Shown one piece after another: positions 22,200 through 33,497 of a stretch of DNA of 45,005 bases. The translations under genes were made by a program, and so were the position numbers. The DNA lies in IMG/VR virus record IMGVR_UViG_3300045988_045233, positions 1-45,005 of that record; one strand, given 5' to 3'. How positions within the stretch are numbered: position 1 is the stretch's first letter; every line of letters begins with the position of its first letter. Under the pieces are notes generated by a model. The model was given only the letters and a program-made list of their open reading frames with translations. It had not been told where the DNA came from and made no database searches. Source of the stretch: a virus.

Positions 22200-22895
22200 A
22201 TGACAGACATCATCTTATCCACCCAGAACGGCGAGCCGGTGGCATCCAGTCGCCAGATCGCTGAGAATTTTGGCAAGCGTCACAACGATGTGATGGAAGC
22301 GATTCGCAATGTTTTAGCTACGGAAAAATCCGTAACTAAATTTTTCCACGAATCATCGTTTGAGTATCGCGGCCAGACCTACCCCATGTACCTGATGAAC
22401 CGGGACGGGTTCAGCCTGCTGGTGATGGGCTTTACCGGCAAGGCGGCGCTGGAGTGGAAGCTGAAGTACATCCAGGCGTTCAACGAGATGGAAAAGAAGC
22501 TGGCCACTCCGCAGATGCCCAAGCTCAGCAAGGAGCTGCAGGCGCTGTTCCTGCTGGACGACCGCACCCAGAGGCAGAAGCAGCGGATCACGGCGCTGGA
22601 AAACAACATGGTCGTGGACTATGACCAGCAGCTTTCCCTCAAGAATGCCGTGAACCACGTTGTTGTGGAAGCTCTGGGCGGCAAGAACGCCCCGGCATAC
22701 GGCGATTCCCATGTACGGGGCATGGTTTACTGCGAGATCAACAAGGACATTCAGATGTGGTTCCGGGTCAGCAGCAGAAACAACATTCCCCGCAAGCGCT
22801 TTGACGAGGCGGTGGAGTACATCCAGCGCTGGAAGCCCAGCACCAACACCGTGATGCTGATCCAGCAGTCCAACGGCCAGACCAGCATGTTCTAA
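22200..22895 (+). CDS. Rha-family regulatory protein with an ORF6C-like C-terminal domain
   Basis: The N-terminus is a paralogue of 12096..12887 (SSRQIAENFGKRHNDVMEAIRN, YLMNRDGFSLL). The C-terminal domain is different. Confidence 0.8.
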   Translation: MTDIILSTQNGEPVASSRQIAENFGKRHNDVMEAIRNVLATEKSVTKFFHESSFEYRGQTYPMYLMNRDGFSLLVMGFTGKAALEWKLKYIQAFNEMEKKLATPQMPKLSKELQALFLLDDRTQRQKQRITALENNMVVDYDQQLSLKNAVNHVVVEALGGKNAPAYGDSHVRGMVYCEINKDIQMWFRVSSRNNIPRKRFDEAVEYIQRWKPSTNTVMLIQQSNGQTSMF

Positions 22896-23899: not shown

Positions 23900-24099
23900 G
23901 CATGACTGTATATGCTTACGCCTACCGTAAGAGCCCTCGGGGCTGCGATGTCAGACAGTTCACAGACCCGCTCACGCCGGACGAATACCCCGGGGAGCCC
24001 GCCAGCGTTAAGGCCCAGCACTGGGCAGATGAGAACATCCTACATTACGAGATGATCCAGGTGCGGGACGCTCTGGGGAACCTGCTGTACGCAAGATAA
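23896..24099 (+). CDS. Hypothetical protein (67 aa)
   Basis: Overlapping start, RBS GGAGGGG. Confidence 0.5.
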   Translation: MSMTVYAYAYRKSPRGCDVRQFTDPLTPDEYPGEPASVKAQHWADENILHYEMIQVRDALGNLLYAR

Positions 24100-24143: not shown

Positions 24144-24773
24144 ATGAAAACCAAAATTTTGAAAGTCAAGATCACCTTCCTGGAGCCGGTGCTGGGCACT
24201 TGGCCCTCCAACCAGAACGTTGCCCGGGACTTCATTGCCAGCAAGAGCCCGGATGCAGCCACGATCGAGGACGAGGTTGCCGCTCTGGGCGCGGATGCCG
24301 TGGCAGACAAGGGCATGACCGTCTTTCCCCGCAACGAGAACGGAGAGCCGGTGCTCTACGACTACCAGATCAAGGGATTCTTTAAGGATTCCTGCGGTAT
24401 GCTGGCCCGCGTGGGCGGCAAGACCGAAACAGGCAAGAAGCGGGCCGTCAACGAGAGCGGCAAGCTCTCCGCCTACAAGAAGGTCATCGACGGCCTGATC
24501 TTCCCGCAGCCCCGCATGATCCCCATCAAGGTCAACGGCAAGATCGGCGACTGCCAGCGCCCCCTGCGTGCCCAGACGGCCCAGGGTGAGCGTGTGAGCC
24601 TGGCTAACTCCGAGGAGATCCCGGCAGGCAGCACCTGCGAGTTTGAGATCCTTCTCATGGACGAATCGCTCGAGAATGCGGTTCTGGAGTGGCTGGACTA
24701 CGGCGTTCTGCGCGGCATCGGCCAGTGGAGAAACAGCGGAAAGGGCCGCTTCACCTTTGACATCATCGACTGA
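24144..24773 (+). CDS. Hypothetical protein with a RAMP-like (Cas7/Csm3-type) motif pattern
   Basis: ATG at 24144 after TAGGAGAA, 209 aa. Beta-strand start KILKVKITFLEPVLG, mid motif YQIKGFFKDS, C-terminal EEIPAGSTCEFEILL ... GIGQWRNSGKGRFTF glycine-rich loop. Confidence 0.55.
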   Translation: MKTKILKVKITFLEPVLGTWPSNQNVARDFIASKSPDAATIEDEVAALGADAVADKGMTVFPRNENGEPVLYDYQIKGFFKDSCGMLARVGGKTETGKKRAVNESGKLSAYKKVIDGLIFPQPRMIPIKVNGKIGDCQRPLRAQTAQGERVSLANSEEIPAGSTCEFEILLMDESLENAVLEWLDYGVLRGIGQWRNSGKGRFTFDIID

Positions 24774-25410
24774 GCAACGGCATTGCATGGATAGGATTTG
24801 ATCTGCTACGGCAATGATATGATTTGCAAAGGCGCTGAATAGCCTGTAACAGCTTTGCGAAGGCGCGGATATGTGCGCATAACTCGGCAACGGCATTGTG
24901 CTGACAAGTTTGCTCAGCAGGGGCACAGGTAGTCACTGCAGTGCAGCGCGGGGCAAAGGCAAGGCTCAGCTGGAAAGCGCAGCGCAACGGCGTAGATAGG
25001 CGCGTAGATCGCTTGGATCAGACTTGCCTCGATAAGCAAAGCAAAGGCAATGCAGGGCCTCGTGTCGAAAAGCGAAGGCAAGGCTGGGCGTGGTGTGGGC
25101 GGCAAGGCATCGCAAGGGCGTAGAGCAGATACGCGCCGCTCTGCTATGCATTGCAAAGGCATAGCACTTCATGGCTACGGCGATGCGGGGCAAAGAAAAG
25201 CTCAGCGATGGCAAAGAAACGCTGAGTTACGAAATGTTTTGCGACGGCTGTGCGGTGCTGCGTGAAGAAGGGCAAGGGCTTGGAAAAGCGGAGTGGAGCG
25301 AAGCTTTGCTATGGCATGGATAAGCCAGGCTGACCTTTGCAATGCAAAGGCAAAGAAACGCAAGTAGAGGCGGCGAAGCGCGTAGCAAAGGCAAAGCAAA
25401 GTATTCTTGA
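24774..25410. repeat. Purine-rich, ORF-poor tract of degenerate GCAAAGGC-type repeats and palindromes
   Basis: GCAAAGGC at 24826, 24953, 25041, 25153, 25344 and 25386. GCGAAGGC at 24857 and 25072. GGCAAAGAAACGC at 25210 and 25349. GCAACGGCATTG at 24774 and 24887. Palindromes at 24934-24943 and 25334-25350. Confidence 0.7.
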
Positions 25411-25428
25411 ACGAAAGGAGATTTTACA

Positions 25429-25587
25429 GTGAGTAAAACAGAGCTGCTGTTCCGGGCCGTGGAAGCACTTTCCACCCCGGCGGCAAAGGCGGTGGCCCGT
25501 GGGCTGACCTTATGGATCGGATTCAACGTGCTTGTCGTGGTCTTTCTGGTCTGGCGGGCATGGAAAAACGGGAGGTGGCGCAAATGA
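25429..25587 (+). CDS. Small hypothetical membrane protein (52 aa)
   Basis: GTG 8 nt after AAAGGAG. TM LTLWIGFNVLVVVFLVW. Confidence 0.4.
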   Translation: MSKTELLFRAVEALSTPAAKAVARGLTLWIGFNVLVVVFLVWRAWKNGRWRK

Positions 25588-27318: not shown

Positions 27319-28119
27319 GTGGACGATGAAATCAGGCCGAAAGCGTTGATGATTCCATTCGACAAATTTGTGATTTTGGATATTCTTCCACCTGAGCAGT
27401 ACAAAAATACCATCACCAAGATGCGGCGGTATGTGGAGCACGGAGAGGAACCGGATGGACTGGAACCTCTGGAACAGATGGCTTTTGAAGCACTTCGACC
27501 GTTCATGGATGAGAATATTAAAACGTATCAACGTTCCGTTTTGTCTCATAGAGAATCCGGCAGTAAAGGCGGCAGACCCAAGAAAACCGAGAAAAACCAA
27601 ATGGTTATTTCAGAAAACCGAGAGAAACCAAATGGTTTTCCGGAGAAACCGGAAGAAACCAAATGCACACCAAAGTACAAAGGTCAAAGTACAAAGTACA
27701 AAGTACAGTCGTCGTCTACTATCGTAGACTCCGACACGCGCGCGGATGCGCGAGACGACTTGACGACGACCATTGTTTTTGAAGAATTCCGGGGCCGTAT
27801 CGGAAAGCTGAGCGAAACAGGCAAGAAAGAGCTGCCCGTTTACGTTGAGCGCCTTGGTGCTGACCTTGTGACAGAGATCATCCGCAAGTGCGAGGATCTG
27901 GGCGGCCACAGCTGGGCCTATGTACGCAAGGCACTGGCGGAAGCCGCCCGGCAGGGCTGCACGTCTGTGGAAGAGTACCGCAAGACAAACCCCATCGGGG
28001 CGGGGCGTGACAAACTGGTCACGCGCCCCCCAGAAGATGCAGCAAAAGCCCCCGATTTCCTCAAAAACGCTGCAAATCGCAGGCCTTTGCGCAAGAAAGG
28101 AGAGGCGAAGAGTGCCTAA
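27319..28119 (+). CDS. Replication protein with a DnaD/replisome-organiser-like C-terminal domain
   Basis: GTG after GGAAGGAGGTG. C-terminal LVTEIIRKCEDLGGHSWAYVRKALAEAARQG pattern. Confidence 0.65.
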   Translation: MDDEIRPKALMIPFDKFVILDILPPEQYKNTITKMRRYVEHGEEPDGLEPLEQMAFEALRPFMDENIKTYQRSVLSHRESGSKGGRPKKTEKNQMVISENREKPNGFPEKPEETKCTPKYKGQSTKYKVQSSSTIVDSDTRADARDDLTTTIVFEEFRGRIGKLSETGKKELPVYVERLGADLVTEIIRKCEDLGGHSWAYVRKALAEAARQGCTSVEEYRKTNPIGAGRDKLVTRPPEDAAKAPDFLKNAANRRPLRKKGEAKSA

Positions 28120-29163: not shown

Positions 29164-29578
29164 GAAACGCCTGATCTATGCGGAGGATGTGATTCAGCAT
29201 CTTGAAAAATGGATTATCGAGGCTGAGAAATGTGAGGCGGCCTCGACATACATTGTGGCAGCCACGCTGAAGCACGTGTTAAAACTCGTCAATTTGGCAC
29301 CTACCGCACACCCTGCATGCACCTGCCAGAAATGGCACCCGGCCAGTGAGATCCCGCTGCTGCACCACGAGGTGGACGAGAATAAATGCGAGGGCACTAT
29401 TGAGTGCGACGTGAGCGAACAGATTCTCTTGTACACGGAAGAGGAGGGCTACAAGGTCGGTGTCTACATGAAGGACTGCTACGGCTTTGACGGCTGGTTG
29501 AACCCTGACTATGGCGGCACCATCCATCATGTGGTGGAGTGGCAGTATCCGCAGAAACCATCAAGGGAGAGAGGCTGA
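29156..29578 (+). CDS. DUF551-type protein
   Basis: RBS AAGGAGG. N-terminal KRLIYAEDV module. C-terminal W...VVEWQYP pattern. Confidence 0.5.
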   Translation: MAEKRLIYAEDVIQHLEKWIIEAEKCEAASTYIVAATLKHVLKLVNLAPTAHPACTCQKWHPASEIPLLHHEVDENKCEGTIECDVSEQILLYTEEEGYKVGVYMKDCYGFDGWLNPDYGGTIHHVVEWQYPQKPSRERG

Positions 29579-29584
29579 ACATTC

Positions 29585-30229
29585 GTGAAGCTGTCAAAAC
29601 GGAGGAAGAGCATGAAACCGAAAACTAAATCAGAGCTGATGGCCGAGTGGGACAGCCAGCCCGGCCGGCTCAAGAAAGAGCGGGAGGTCAAGGCTGTCCG
29701 CAAGGCGATGGACGATGCCCGCGCCGTGATGCAGGACGGTCTGACCCGGTACGTCAAGAAAAAGACCAAAGCCCGCAGCATGGCAAAGGCTGAAGCTAAC
29801 CCCTTTGCTGAGCTGGAAGGCTGGGAAAGCATGGAGCAGATCCAGGATGCCTACGGCTATGGCGAGATCACTGCCGACAGGCGGGATAAACTCACCGACC
29901 TGTGGGAAGCCCGGGAAGCGGCCCAGAAGCAGGAAGAACAGCAGCGCGGAAGGAAGACGCTGCATATGCTGGCCGAAAAAACGATAAAAGAAACTGCGCC
30001 GTGGGAACTGGCGTGGGAAGATGTACAGTTTGGGCTTGAATATTACAAACAACCTCTTCCCGGCGGGGCAATGTTTTGGAAACGAATAGATCAAAACCGC
30101 CAACATGCCGGAATCATGAATTACGACGATTACGCAATCATTTTGCAGGACGGAAAATTTTTTACTTGCGGATGGATTCCGAAAATCAGCGTGATAGCTG
30201 AACTTGTAAGATATTTTGTTTTGAAATAA
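29585..30229 (+). CDS. Hypothetical protein (214 aa; start could be ATG at 29612)
   Basis: Long ORF in the operon. Basic/coiled N-terminal half. Confidence 0.5.
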   Translation: MKLSKRRKSMKPKTKSELMAEWDSQPGRLKKEREVKAVRKAMDDARAVMQDGLTRYVKKKTKARSMAKAEANPFAELEGWESMEQIQDAYGYGEITADRRDKLTDLWEAREAAQKQEEQQRGRKTLHMLAEKTIKETAPWELAWEDVQFGLEYYKQPLPGGAMFWKRIDQNRQHAGIMNYDDYAIILQDGKFFTCGWIPKISVIAELVRYFVLK

Positions 30230-30244
30230 TGGGGTGGACGGACG

Positions 30245-30895
30245 ATGAGAGTGCTTGTTGCTTGCGAAGAATCGCAGGAAGTTTGCAAGGCCTTTCGTGC
30301 GAGAGGTCACGAAGCCTACTCCTGCGATATTCAGGATCCATCCGGCGGACACCCTGAGTGGCATATTCTGGGAGATGCTTTGAAGGCTCTTGAAGGGGGG
30401 CGAATCGTGACAATGGACGGCGTAGAGCATGATGTAGGAAAGTGGGACTTGCTCATTGCACACCCGCCTTGCACATATCTGAGCAACGCCGGAGCAAGGC
30501 ATCTCTGGAAGGGACACCAGCTTCAGGCTGATCGCGTGATGCTCGGAATTCAGGGCCGCGATTTGTTCATGCGGTTTTGGTGGGCAGACGTCCCGAAAAT
30601 TTGCGTAGAGAATCCTATACCGAGCAGAGTTTTTTGTTTGCCGCCATATACACAGGCCATACAGCCGTATGAGTATGGACACCCCTACAGCAAGAAAACA
30701 TGCCTTTGGCTGAAGGGACTTCCGACTTTGCTTCCGACCGATATCGTGGAGCCTGAGGCTACATGGTGCCCGTCCGGCTCATATGCACACAAGCACGATG
30801 AACGCAGCAAGGGCATGTTTACCGCTAACCGTGCAAAAAATCGAGCAAAAACGTTTCCCGGCATTGCAAAAGCAATGTCAGAACAATGGGGGTGA
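30245..30895 (+). CDS. Short DNA cytosine-C5 methyltransferase-like protein
   Basis: 216 aa with AHPPCTYLS (PC catalytic motif) and VENP (ENV-like motif). No obvious target-recognition domain. Confidence 0.55.
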   Translation: MRVLVACEESQEVCKAFRARGHEAYSCDIQDPSGGHPEWHILGDALKALEGGRIVTMDGVEHDVGKWDLLIAHPPCTYLSNAGARHLWKGHQLQADRVMLGIQGRDLFMRFWWADVPKICVENPIPSRVFCLPPYTQAIQPYEYGHPYSKKTCLWLKGLPTLLPTDIVEPEATWCPSGSYAHKHDERSKGMFTANRAKNRAKTFPGIAKAMSEQWG

Positions 30896-33163: not shown

Positions 33164-33239
33164 ACTCCGGCAGCTCAAGTGGTAGAGCAGCGGTCTCCAA
33201 AACCGCAGGTTGCAGGTTCGAGCCCTGCCTGGAGTGCCA
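33164..33239 (+). tRNA. tRNA-Trp (anticodon CCA), CCA-encoded
   Basis: 76-nt cloverleaf: acceptor ACTCCGG/CTGGAGT, D arm GCTC-AAGTGGTA-GAGC, anticodon arm GCGGT-CTCCAAA-ACCGC, T arm GCAGG-TTCGAGC-CCTGC, discriminator G, CCA. Position 8 is C. Confidence 0.85.
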
Positions 33240-33361: not shown

Positions 33362-33497
33362 GCCGTCATAGCTCAACTGGGAGAGCGCCGCCCATTTAAG
33401 GCGGGACAACGCTGGTGACACCACGGGAACATCGCTGCACAGCCAACCACTGCGCACATCCATTCCGTGGGTGCTGGTTCAAATCCAGCTGGCGGCT
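33362..33497 (+). ncRNA. tRNA-Lys(UUU)-like element with A33 and a 68-nt insertion at the variable-arm position
   Basis: Acceptor GCCGTCA/TGGCGGC, D arm GCTC-AACTGGGA-GAGC, anticodon arm CCGCC-CATTTAA-GGCGG, T arm GCTGG-TTCAAAT-CCAGC. Bases 33405-33472 are inserted between the anticodon and T arms. Confidence 0.4.

What the first reader, a model, noticed from the sequence alone, without database searches (positions are those of the whole stretch)
24774..25410. 640-bp purine-skewed, ORF-poor tract packed with degenerate GCAAAGGC repeats and palindromes
Between the RAMP-like gene and the next RBS-backed ORF (25429) no frame has a convincing gene. The plus strand is roughly two-thirds purine by eye, which leaves all three minus-strand frames artefactually open.

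Repeats and palindromes seen:
- GC(A/G)AAGGC occurs at least 8 times (24826, 24857, 24953, 25041, 25072, 25153, 25344, 25386).
- GGCAAAGAAACGC occurs twice exactly (25210, 25349), with a variant at 25189.
- GCAACGGCATTG occurs twice (24774, 24887).
- GCGTAGAT occurs in tandem (24990, 25002).
- Perfect palindromes: CACTGCAGTG (24934-24943) and CCTTTGCAaTGCAAAGG (25334-25350).
- Hairpins: GCTATGC...GCATAGC (25143-25165) and CTCAGC...GCTGAG (25200-25226).

The tract lies just upstream of the SSAP, SSB and DnaD-like genes. It could be an iteron-type replication origin. It could also be a protein-titrating or structured non-coding RNA locus, possibly a partner of the adjacent RAMP-like protein.
Basis: seen in the sequence. 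Interest (0 to 1): 0.65.

Follow-up and report, generated by a model that had tools for sequence, protein, structure and literature searches.

The report
Repeat array partnered with phage Cas7-like gene
The odd 640-base stretch is real, non-coding and not a replication origin: it is a periodic repeat array that in hundreds of phages sits beside one gene, a lone relative of the CRISPR protein Cas7, and I found no description of this pairing.

Summary
Bases 24774-25410 are non-coding, 61.5% purine, G-rich and C-poor. The GCAAAGGC-type motif occurs only on the + strand and far above chance.

It consists of NNNGC pentamers with an AAAGGC-type hexamer core every 4-8 units. That gives about 21 blocks of roughly 31 nt, and there is no 3-nt periodicity.

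The upstream gene (24144-24773) encodes a stand-alone Cas7/Csm3-like RAMP protein. Its AF2 model has pLDDT 92, and every top PDB fold match is a Cas7-type subunit.

Gene and tract form a conserved, reciprocal pair:
- The same-strand array abuts the gene in nearly all 125 loci sampled (43-100% protein identity). Hosts include Faecalibacterium and other Clostridia, and some loci come from other metagenomes.
- The array lies downstream, upstream or on both sides of the gene.
- 73 of 119 IMG/VR loci found by the DNA motif alone carry the gene.

The flanking genes vary. The tract matches no Rfam family and folds no better than shuffled sequence.

A better origin candidate lies inside the DnaD-like gene (27581-27712).

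Best reading (about 0.5): an unstructured RNA scaffold that the RAMP protein binds repeatedly. Its biological role is unknown; counter-defence is a guess. Transcription and binding were not tested.

The parts
24144..24773 (+). Gene for a stand-alone Cas7/Csm3-like RAMP protein of 209 aa. The likely start is the ATG at 24144, preceded by GGAGAG. The 224-aa ORF starting at 24099 is probably too long.
   Evidence: - There is no Pfam, PHROG or PDB sequence hit for the single sequence.
- A profile of 46 homologs hits type VII Cas7 (E = 1e-5) and the Csm4 G-rich loop.
- The AF2 model has pLDDT 92.
- The top Foldseek matches in the PDB are all Cas7-type subunits from type VII, III-A, IV-A and III-B complexes and from Cas7-11. 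Probability is 1.0 and TM is about 0.5-0.55.
- A 71%-identical BFVD entry is named 'Cas system-associated RAMP superfamily protein'.
- Most database homologs start at the MKTKILKV position.
24774..25410 (+). Non-coding periodic repeat array. It consists of NNNGC pentamers with an AAAGGC-type hexamer core every 4-8 units, giving about 21 degenerate blocks of roughly 31 nt. It starts at the first base after the RAMP gene's stop codon.
   Evidence: - Autocorrelation peaks lie at 5, 10/11, 21, 26, 31, 36 and 41, with none at 3.
- Repeat families show 31-nt spacing (D1, D6 and D8; TRF).
- Motif enrichment is restricted to the + strand.
- Close relatives carry frame-breaking indels.
- The array is conserved next to homologous genes.
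24805..25083 (+). The best-ordered part of the array: nine consecutive 31-nt blocks that keep the core (TTTGCRAAGGC / AGCRAAGGCAA) in the same register.
   Evidence: - This comes from slicing the sequence by hand into 31-nt rows.
- Cores lie at 24826/24857 and 25041/25072, each pair exactly 31 nt apart.
- L029 and L016 have an exact 31-nt deletion between the first two cores.
25165..25380 (+). The hypervariable 3' half of the array. Among phages whose RAMP gene is 98-100% identical, it is replaced, shortened or expanded block by block.
   Evidence: Alignment A2 and the blastn comparison of tract lengths and identities.
25385..25428 (+). The conserved end of the array (GCAAAGGCAAAGCAAAG) followed by the ribosome-binding site AAAGGAG for the next gene, whose GTG start is at 25429.
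   Evidence: These columns are invariant in alignment A2; the sequence is.

Best explanation
The tract is the non-coding partner of the gene directly upstream, which encodes a lone Cas7/Csm3-like RAMP protein.

Proposed mechanism:
- The tract is transcribed on the sense strand, as the untranslated extension of the RAMP mRNA within the phage's early rightward operon.
- The resulting RNA is G-rich, C-poor and largely unstructured.
- It is a long array of NNNGC pentamers punctuated by AAAGGC-type cores, and it offers many equivalent binding sites in a 5-nt register.
- The RAMP protein binds the array repeatedly, with the cores as likely nucleation or register marks. The product would be a phage-made ribonucleoprotein, probably filament-like or beads-on-a-string.

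Shown here:
- The array is real, non-coding and periodic.
- The neighbouring protein has a Cas7 fold.
- Gene and array are a conserved, reciprocal, same-strand pair whose order is flexible.
- Array length is free to vary (about 190 to more than 1000 nt).

Inferred:
- The tract is transcribed.
- The RAMP protein is what binds it.
- It acts as RNA rather than DNA.
- The 5-nt period is a protein footprint.

Speculative: the biological role. The module lies in the early region next to the lysogeny switch, and the protein has CRISPR ancestry. My guess is therefore counter-defence, for example a decoy or aberrant complex that ties up host class 1 CRISPR parts or another RNA-directed host factor.
For: The protein:
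- It has a Cas7 fold and a RAMP G-rich loop.
- The most conserved residues (R139, L141, R142, G148, R150, S156, E157) lie in the long beta-hairpin at 135-159 of the model. By my reading, that is where Cas7 proteins carry their RNA-contacting thumb.
- Tandem double-RAMP fusions exist (P0143, P0158). This is what one would expect of subunits that sit side by side.

The pairing:
- The period-5, purine-rich tract follows the gene in 98-100%-identical and 84%-identical IMG/VR loci.
- It also follows the gene in 43-48%-identical loci: L082, L085 and L122.
- Core GCAAWGGMA clusters, on the + strand, abut the gene in most of the 125 loci, which include 40 genome and MAG loci.
- The array lies upstream of the gene in L125, and by motif positions in L123 and L101. 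It lies on both sides in L143.
- In L071 and L056 a homing endonuclease gene has inserted between gene and array, and the array is still there.
- Reciprocal test: 73 of 119 loci found only by GCAAAGGC-N23-GCAAAGGC contain a G-Q-W-R-N coding pattern. In those I checked it lies close by on the same strand. My estimate of chance is about 0.002 per locus.

Acts as a single strand or RNA:
- The array is always on the gene's sense strand.
- It starts at the stop codon with no room for a promoter.
- The strand skew runs through the whole tract, not just the cores.
- In L143 a T-run precedes the module, and in L085 a T-run plus a TTGACA-type promoter follow it.
- Spacings of 26 and 36 nt are as strong as 21, 31 and 41 nt, which argues against same-face phasing on B-DNA. 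L143 has exact 26-nt tandem units.

Unstructured: folding z-scores are near zero and there is no Rfam match.
Against: - There is no direct evidence of transcription, of RNA stability or of RAMP binding. Every functional step is inferred.
- From established structural work, known Cas7 backbones hold crRNA in 6-nt steps and without sequence preference. A 5-nt, GC-marked register does not match that.
- The protein falls below every curated RAMP family threshold. Fold similarity is moderate (TM about 0.5).
- One lineage (L125) folds better than shuffles, z = -2.44.
- The purine-rich, C-poor composition could partly serve to avoid Rho-dependent termination in an untranslated operon segment.
- The rapid block turnover of the 3' half shows weak constraint on the exact sequence.
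Confidence: 0.5

Rival explanations
1. The tract acts as double-stranded DNA. It would be an array of protein-binding sites, such as an iteron origin, a partition or centromere-like site, or an operator array, bound by a phage DNA-binding protein. This includes the first reader's origin idea.
For: - The tract has direct repeats with a preferred spacing of about 31 bp, roughly three turns of B-DNA.
- It lies in the early region upstream of the SSAP, SSB and DnaD-like genes.
- Block gain and loss resembles the behaviour of iteron arrays.
Against: - There is no AT-rich unwinding element.
- Spacings of 26 and 36 nt are as strong as 21, 31 and 41 nt, and L143 has exact 26-nt units. The sites would therefore alternate between faces of the helix.
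- The strand skew is pervasive and always tied to the sense strand.
- The only constant neighbour is a protein with an RNA-binding RAMP fold, while the replication genes vary.
- A better origin candidate lies inside the DnaD-like gene: three 31-bp iterons and CAAAGTA tandems at the GC minimum.
Confidence: 0.13
2. The tract is a mini-array that is cut into short guide-like RNAs of about 26-36 nt, each carrying one core as a handle. The RAMP protein would process or carry them, making a stripped-down, CRISPR-like RNA-guided module.
For: - The blocks have a regular size with one conserved core each.
- The tract is adjacent to a Cas7-like gene.
- One end of the array varies between near-identical phages, as happens in CRISPR arrays.
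Against: - The stretches between cores are not unique spacers. They follow the same NNNGC rule and the same composition as the rest of the tract, so they do not look acquired.
- No adaptation or other cas gene was found among the window genes scanned with Pfam, PHROGs or PADLOC. Only part of the window was scanned.
- There are no repeat hairpins.
- The core occurs once on the opposite strand in the window, so no in-window target array is evident.
Confidence: 0.12
3. The tract RNA is a sponge or decoy for a host factor, such as an RNA-binding regulator, a ribonuclease, Rho or the ribosome. The RAMP protein would be only a bystander or a stabiliser.
For: - The RNA offers many reiterated short purine-rich motifs in an unstructured molecule, like known titrating RNAs.
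- The AAAGG cores resemble half of a Firmicute Shine-Dalgarno sequence (direct reading).
- The tract lies in the early operon.
Against: - The motif is GGC/GC, not the GGA of CsrA-type sponges.
- The strict mutual linkage with the RAMP gene across very different hosts points to a phage-encoded binder.
Confidence: 0.1
4. The tract is a fast-evolving minisatellite made by slippage and unequal recombination. It would have no function of its own and would merely be tolerated as an intergenic spacer or a recombination junction.
For: - Length ranges from about 190 to more than 1000 nt.
- Blocks turn over among near-identical phages, and an exact 31-nt deletion lies between repeats.
Against: - The same rule (NNNGC plus core), the same strand and the same gene partner persist down to 43% protein identity.
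- They persist across different GC contents, and whether the array lies before, after or on both sides of the gene.
- Such arrays in 2.9 million viral contigs are mostly next to the gene.
Confidence: 0.07

Closest known systems
Class 1 CRISPR effector backbones (Csm3/Cmr4/Csf2 and type VII Cas7 on crRNA), including type IV-B Csf2 filaments that assemble on non-CRISPR RNAs (PMC7937560, abstract seen)
   Same: - A Cas7-fold RAMP protein is encoded next to a repeat array on the same strand.
- The expected product is protein subunits lined up on a single-stranded RNA.
- Type IV-B shows that a Cas7-type filament can work without a CRISPR array, and it occurs on mobile elements.
   Different: - No Cas5, Cas8, Cas10, Cas11, Cas6 or Cas1/2 gene was found nearby.
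- The array has no repeat-spacer organisation.
- Its units are 5-6 nt long and carry a GC mark, whereas canonical Cas7 uses a 6-nt, sequence-independent step.
- The protein is below every curated Cas family threshold.
RNA anti-CRISPRs (Racrs; PMC10651486) and protein-RNA anti-CRISPRs such as AcrIIIA1 (PMC11662646)
   Same: These are phage-encoded non-coding RNAs, or protein-RNA pairs, that engage Cas7-type machinery. They are encoded in early or accessory regions.
   Different: - Racrs mimic the host CRISPR repeat and are solitary units. This tract is a long pentamer array with its own RAMP gene.
- No similarity to a host repeat was tested.
- AcrIIIA1 binds host t(m)RNA fragments, not a dedicated array.
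Periodic protein-binding RNAs: TRAP sites ((G/U)AG every 5-6 nt) and the TMV origin of assembly (G every third base). Both are recalled from established knowledge and were not tested here.
   Same: A short sequence mark recurs at the footprint of one protein subunit on an otherwise unstructured RNA. As with TRAP, a mixture of 5- and 6-nt spacings is tolerated.
   Different: - The proteins are unrelated.
- The array here is 10-20 times longer than a TRAP site.
- No binding has been demonstrated.
Iteron-type phage and plasmid replication origins
   Same: Both have tandem direct repeats, some spaced at about 31 bp, and in this phage they lie near replication genes.
   Different: - There is no AT-rich element.
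- The spacings do not keep to one helical face.
- The tract is linked to the RAMP gene, not to an initiator.
- A better candidate lies inside the DnaD-like gene.
Fused multi-Cas7 effectors (Cas7-11 / gRAMP)
   Same: Some members of this family are tandem fusions of two RAMP domains (P0143, P0158). Cas7-11 chains are among the fold matches.
   Different: The fusions have only two domains, no CRISPR array, and none of the processing or protease partners known for Cas7-11.

Membership tests
Iteron-type replication origin | Tandem direct repeats bound by the initiator and phased on the DNA helix | tested here: inconclusive
   Direct repeats exist and 31-nt spacing is common. However, 26 and 36 nt are equally strong, and L143 has exact 26-nt units.
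Iteron-type replication origin | An adjacent AT-rich DNA-unwinding element | tested here: not met
   GC stays at 0.50-0.60 across 24700-25450. The local GC minimum (0.44) is at 27400-27699 instead.
Iteron-type replication origin | Genetic linkage to the initiator or replication module | tested here: not met
   The array follows the RAMP gene in loci whose downstream modules differ. Candidate iterons lie inside the DnaD-like gene.
CRISPR array | Near-identical repeats of about 23-55 nt separated by unique spacers of similar length | tested here: not met
   The units are degenerate 26-36-nt blocks. The stretches between cores obey the same NNNGC rule as the rest and are not unique.
CRISPR-Cas locus | Other cas genes alongside the Cas7-like gene (adaptation genes, Cas5, the large subunit, Cas6) | tested here: not met
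   Scans of neighbouring genes with Pfam, PHROGs, PADLOC and NCBIfam found none. Only part of the window was scanned.
Cas7 / RAMP superfamily (for the neighbouring gene) | A Cas7-type RRM core with a thumb-like beta-hairpin, shown by fold similarity | tested here: met
   The AF2 model has pLDDT 92. There are 210 PDB matches at E <= 1e-3, and the top 50 are all chains of class 1 effector complexes or Cas7-11, with TM of 0.42-0.55.
Cas7 / RAMP superfamily (for the neighbouring gene) | A C-terminal glycine-rich loop | tested here: met
   The motif G(L/I)GQWRNxGxGRF is nearly invariant. It aligns to the loops of type VII Cas7 and of Csm4.
Cas7 / RAMP superfamily (for the neighbouring gene) | A score above the curated family threshold (Pfam or NCBIfam) | tested here: not met
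   There is no Pfam hit. The Csm4 model TIGR01903 scores 11-16 bits against a cut-off of 55. The PADLOC Csm3 model gives E = 0.006 for one homolog only.
Cas7 / RAMP superfamily (for the neighbouring gene) | Binds crRNA in 6-nt steps; a catalytic Asp cleaves the target RNA | not testable with these tools
   No protein-RNA modelling or assay was available. No conserved acidic residue is obvious after strand 1 in alignment A1, but this was not mapped onto a structure.
Known structured RNA families (Rfam 15) | A match to a covariance model, or a fold more stable than chance | tested here: not met
   There are no hits in the tract at gathering score or at E <= 10, and none in eight other loci. Folding z-scores are -0.48, +0.31, -1.02, +0.62 and -2.44.
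CsrB/RsmZ-type protein-sponge RNAs | Many GGA motifs presented in hairpin loops | tested here: not met
   The reiterated motif is GC/GGCA, not GGA, and there is no hairpin organisation.
RNA anti-CRISPR (Racr) | Sequence or structure mimicry of the host's CRISPR repeat | not tested
   The host CRISPR repeats were not retrieved, so no comparison was made.

The most novel reading that the evidence does not exclude
The module would be a previously unrecognised kind of phage ribonucleoprotein. A Cas7-derived protein, detached from CRISPR, would polymerise in a 5-nt register on its own dedicated (NNNGC)n RNA. The RNA would specify assembly through a periodic GC mark, much as a viral origin-of-assembly does. 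Temperate phages of gut Clostridia and of other environments would use it early in infection for counter-defence or RNA protection. It would be the first example of a Cas7 backbone with a sequence-programmed, non-guide RNA.
Probability: 0.3. Interest if true: 0.9.

Novelty: new variant of a known kind. Interest (0 to 1): 0.8.

Why it matters
If the pairing works as proposed, it matters in several ways.
- It extends the known uses of the CRISPR RAMP/Cas7 fold beyond guide-RNA complexes. Here the RNA would be a self-encoded, periodic scaffold rather than a guide.
- The family is large: at least 7,739 related proteins, 1,715 clusters at 50% identity, and more than 599 IMG/VR loci. It is common in prophages of abundant human-gut Clostridia such as Faecalibacterium. 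Seven literature searches found no description of it.
- It gives a concrete, cheap experiment: co-express the gene and the tract, then pull down, sequence and image the product.
- It could reveal a new anti-defence strategy or a programmable RNA-coating protein.
- It corrects the annotation. The tract should not be called an origin, and the likely origin lies inside the DnaD-like gene.

Tried and rejected
- Rfam at gathering score on the whole window, at E <= 10 on the tract, and on eight other loci gave nothing in any tract.
- There is no tRNA or tmRNA in the tract.
- The sigma-70 promoter and intrinsic-terminator scan found nothing convincing inside the tract.
- RNA folding gave no excess stability in 4 of 5 lineages. 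I therefore dropped the structured-RNA idea and did not build a covariance model.
- DNA similarity to deposited phages gave only two 35-40-nt matches, which lie in the end of the upstream gene.
- A protein search of deposited phages found only 4 unannotated uncultured records, so there is no cultured model.
I used the single protein instead.
- Two look-ups of divergent homologs returned contigs with almost no sequence beyond the gene. A third, L084, kept only about 240 nt beyond it.
- I searched for more double-RAMP fusions to build an alignment for a two-domain model. No further two-domain homologue turned up (one 404-aa hit matched only 43% of the query), so I did not predict that structure.
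- The script machine was lost. Periodicity in the other loci was therefore judged, from motif positions, and by reading the sequences, not from new statistics.
- Seven literature searches found nothing on a phage Cas7-like gene with a pentamer array. I also read parts of three papers.
- I considered and set aside several other ideas because the motif or layout does not fit: a Chi-site cluster, sigma-54 promoters, G-quadruplexes, a Shine-Dalgarno decoy, an R-loop origin, and a primase-site cluster. None of these was formally tested.
Full report
**1. The observation**

The tract 24774-25410 was read directly. One coordinate is off by a single base: the last GCAAAGGC starts at 25385, not 25386. 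No ORF in the tract exceeds 82 aa and none has support.

The + strand is 61.5% purine. The window mean for segments of this size is 52.7% (sd 3.6), so the tract ties for the window maximum. GC skew reaches +0.30.

The motif is far above chance and restricted to one strand:
- There are eight GCRAAGGC hits, all on the + strand, in 655 nt. Shuffles predict 5.9 +/- 2.7 for the entire 45 kb on both strands.
- There are ten GGCAWWG hits, all on the + strand.
- 12 of the 35 GC-N3-GC-N3-GC matches in the window fall in this 1.5% of it.

**2. Hidden order**

Base autocorrelation shows a strong peak at lag 5 (z = 10.4). Further peaks lie at 10/11, 15/16, 21, 26, 31 (z = 8.3), 36 and 41. Lag 3 is depleted, so the tract is not coding.

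Reading the sequence shows why. The tract is a run of NNNGC pentamers. About every 4-8 units there is a hexamer of the AAAGGC type. This 'core' has the wider consensus GCAAnGGCAnnGC, so core-to-core distances are 5n+1.

When the sequence is sliced into 31-nt rows, the core keeps its column from 24805 to 25083 and is back in the same column at 25385. This comes from my manual slicing. It agrees with repeat families D1, D6 and D8 and with the period-31 hit from Tandem Repeats Finder. The tract is therefore about 21 degenerate blocks of roughly 31 nt.

**3. It is not a known or structured RNA, and no signals lie inside it**
- Rfam gives nothing in the tract at gathering score or at E <= 10, and nothing in the tracts of eight other loci.
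- The tract folds no better than dinucleotide shuffles (z = -0.48). Equivalent tracts from four other lineages give +0.31, -1.02, +0.62 and -2.44.
- There is no tRNA in the tract, and no promoter-like or convincing terminator-like site inside it.

**4. The upstream gene**

The ORF 24144-24773 encodes 209 aa from MKTKILKV, and its start is preceded by GGAGAG. As a single sequence it has no Pfam, PHROG or PDB match. It nevertheless belongs to a very large unnamed family:
- at least 7,739 related proteins;
- 1,715 clusters at 50% identity;

A profile of 46 diverse members matches the chain that depositors call Cas7 in the type VII CRISPR complexes (E = 1e-5). It also matches the glycine-rich loop of Csm4.

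The AlphaFold2 model is confident, with pLDDT 92 and pTM 0.85. Its best PDB matches are all from class 1 CRISPR effector complexes:
- type VII Cas7 (E = 1e-9);
- chains of 200-220 residues from Lactococcus, Enterococcus, Streptococcus and Staphylococcus Csm complexes;
- chains from type IV-A3 and type III-B (Cmr) effector complexes;
- Cas7-11.

The matches have probability 1.0 and TM of 0.42-0.55.

A 71%-identical viral protein in BFVD already carries the automatic name 'Cas system-associated RAMP superfamily protein'. The most conserved residues are in two places. One is a long beta-hairpin (R139, R142, G148, R150, S156, E157). The other is the C-terminal loop GxGQWRNxGxGRF.

Some members are tandem fusions of two such domains. 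Curated Cas models are not reached. The protein is therefore Cas7-like by fold, not a member of a named Cas family.

**5. Gene and tract are a conserved pair**
- In 80 IMG/VR loci, the 650 nt after the gene show the same period-5 signal and purine excess. This holds both for 98-100%-identical proteins and for 84%-identical ones, whose tract no longer aligns by blastn.
- I read the tract directly in L062 (84%), L082 (48%, a low-GC phage whose core is GGCATAG), L085 (43%), L122 (47%, a Dehalococcoidia MAG), L110, L113, L118 and L120. Each has a same-strand array of 250-550 nt that starts at the stop codon.
- L112 carries about 1,030 nt of array.
- The core pattern GCAAWGGMA clusters on the + strand beside the gene in most of the 125 loci then held. 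These include 40 genome loci from Faecalibacterium, Oscillospiraceae, Lachnospiraceae, Olsenella and others. Cores are often exactly 31 nt apart in unrelated lineages.
- The array lies upstream of the gene in L125 and, judging by motif positions, in L123 and L101.
- In L143 it lies on both sides. A T-run is followed by about 830 nt of array, then the gene, then about 575 nt of array. That array includes exact 26-nt tandem units.
- In L071 and L056 an HNH homing endonuclease gene sits between gene and array. It duplicates the RAMP C-terminus, and the array is still there.
- Flanking genes otherwise differ from locus to locus.

The link holds in the other direction too. I scanned 2.9 million viral contigs for two GCAAAGGC cores 31 nt apart, a pattern that says nothing about the gene. 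Of the 119 new loci, 73 contain an exact coding pattern for the RAMP pentapeptide G-Q-W-R-N. In those I checked it lies within a few hundred bases on the same strand. By my estimate, chance would give about 0.002 per locus. Some of the remaining loci are cut at contig ends, or may have variant loops such as LQWRN or GQWRS, which occur in the family.

**6. How the tract evolves**

Among phages whose RAMP protein is 98-100% identical, the first 250-400 nt of the tract are almost invariant. The 3' half is replaced, shortened or expanded in blocks. L029 and L016 have an exact 31-nt deletion between the first two cores, and there are 1- and 2-nt indels. Length and exact sequence are therefore free to vary, while the rule (NNNGC plus cores, sense strand, next to the gene) is kept.

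**7. RNA or DNA?**

Points favouring a single-stranded, probably RNA, role:
- The array is always on the gene's sense strand.
- It starts at the stop codon.
- The skew runs through the whole tract, not only the cores.
- The module is bounded by T-runs in L143 and L085. In L085 a TTGACA-type promoter follows.
- The constant partner has an RNA-binding fold.

Points against double-stranded DNA sites phased on one helical face:
- Spacings of 26 and 36 nt are as strong as 21, 31 and 41 nt.
- There is no AT-rich element.

The origin reading is weakened further by a classical candidate elsewhere. It lies inside the DnaD-like/DUF6291 gene and has three 31-bp direct repeats of AAACCGAGAAAAACCAAATG at 27584-27665. 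Tandem CAAAGTA heptamers follow at 27671-27712. Both sit in the local GC minimum. From established knowledge, this matches the in-gene origins of replisome-organiser genes in SPP1 and in lactococcal phages.

**8. Most likely mechanism**

The window is a temperate siphophage. An integrase gene and HTH repressor genes lie at 16.3-20.9 kb on the minus strand. The rightward early operon begins with a Rha/antirepressor gene at 22200. The RAMP gene and its array lie 2-3 kb into that operon, before the SSAP-like, SSB and DnaD-like genes.

I propose that the array is transcribed with the gene. It would yield an unstructured, C-poor RNA that the RAMP protein binds many times in a 5-nt register, with the cores acting as nucleation or register marks.

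The closest working analogies are periodic protein-binding RNAs: TRAP sites, and the G-every-third-base origin of assembly of TMV. Both are recalled from established knowledge. Another analogy is the Cas7-type filament of type IV-B, which assembles on RNA other than crRNA (PMC7937560).

A counter-defence role is only a guess. One precedent is RNA anti-CRISPRs, which draw Cas7 into aberrant complexes (PMC10651486). Another is the protein-RNA anti-CRISPR AcrIIIA1 (PMC11662646).

The main difficulty is that canonical Cas7 backbones use a sequence-independent 6-nt step, whereas this array has a GC-marked 5-nt step. That mismatch is unexplained.

**9. Rivals**
- A double-stranded DNA site array, including an origin: about 0.13.
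- A mini-array processed into 26-36-nt guide-like RNAs: about 0.12.
- A sponge for a host factor: about 0.10.
- A functionless minisatellite: about 0.07.

Each is discussed in its own section, together with the result that would refute it.

**10. Novelty and verdict**

Seven full-text searches found no description of a phage Cas7-like gene with a pentamer or 31-nt array. I also read parts of three papers. The non-CRISPR arrays reported by Altae-Tran et al. 2023 (PMC10910872) are different systems. Deposited phage genomes hold only four unannotated uncultured relatives.

The finding is real and statistically solid. The origin and structured-RNA readings are not supported. The 'partner of the RAMP-like protein' reading is strongly supported by comparative genomics but has not been tested biochemically.

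I class it as a new variant of a known kind: a CRISPR-derived RAMP-plus-array module without CRISPR architecture. Interest is 0.8.

Noticed in passing
window 27581-27712 (inside the DnaD-like gene 27319-28119): A classical origin-like arrangement. Three 31-bp direct repeats of AAACCGAGAAAAACCAAATG (27584, 27615, 27646) are followed by tandem 7-bp CAAAGTA repeats (27671-27712). They sit in the local GC minimum (0.44) and are read in shifting reading frames. This is probably the phage's replication origin.
   Followed up: partly
L071 5644-6261 (also L056): A low-GC HNH-type homing endonuclease gene of 205 aa is inserted between the RAMP gene and its array. Its last residues (NSGKGRFSYEILN) duplicate the RAMP C-terminus, which suggests it inserted within the gene's 3' end.
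   Followed up: partly
proteins P0143 (458 aa, locus L084 52-1428) and P0158 (432 aa): These are tandem fusions of two RAMP-like domains, 39% and 33% identical to the window protein. They are reminiscent of fused multi-Cas7 effectors. L084 has a hairpin and then the start of a similar array after the gene.
   Followed up: partly
L143 2070-4200 (minus strand): This GC-rich contig (metagenome 3300031565; habitat not looked up) carries the array on both sides of the RAMP gene, about 830 nt plus about 575 nt. A T-run precedes the module, and three exact or near-exact 26-nt tandem units lie around 3960-3880.
   Followed up: partly
window 33362-33497: Rfam reports a second tRNA match (45 bits) that spans 136 nt, about twice the normal length. 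It lies 120 nt after tRNA-Trp (33164-33239), and ARAGORN did not call it. It may be an interrupted or intron-bearing tRNA.
   Followed up: no
window about 29350-30250: This is the only other stretch of the window as purine-rich as the tract, at 61.5% in 655-nt segments. It overlaps + strand ORFs, including 29585-30229, which has no Pfam match. Its periodicity was not examined.
   Followed up: no
window 25429-25587; L071 6695-6934; L085 1750-1893; L112 from 2390: In several lineages the first gene after the array encodes a small protein with a hydrophobic, membrane-like segment. I did not test whether these proteins are related or whether the pattern is meaningful.
   Followed up: no
proteins P0287, P0289, P0295, P0296, P0307: A few database proteins combine partial RAMP homology with unrelated Pfam domains (PLD-like nuclease, RNase T-type exonuclease, helicase). 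They could be real fusions, or gene-calling artefacts on short contigs.
   Followed up: no
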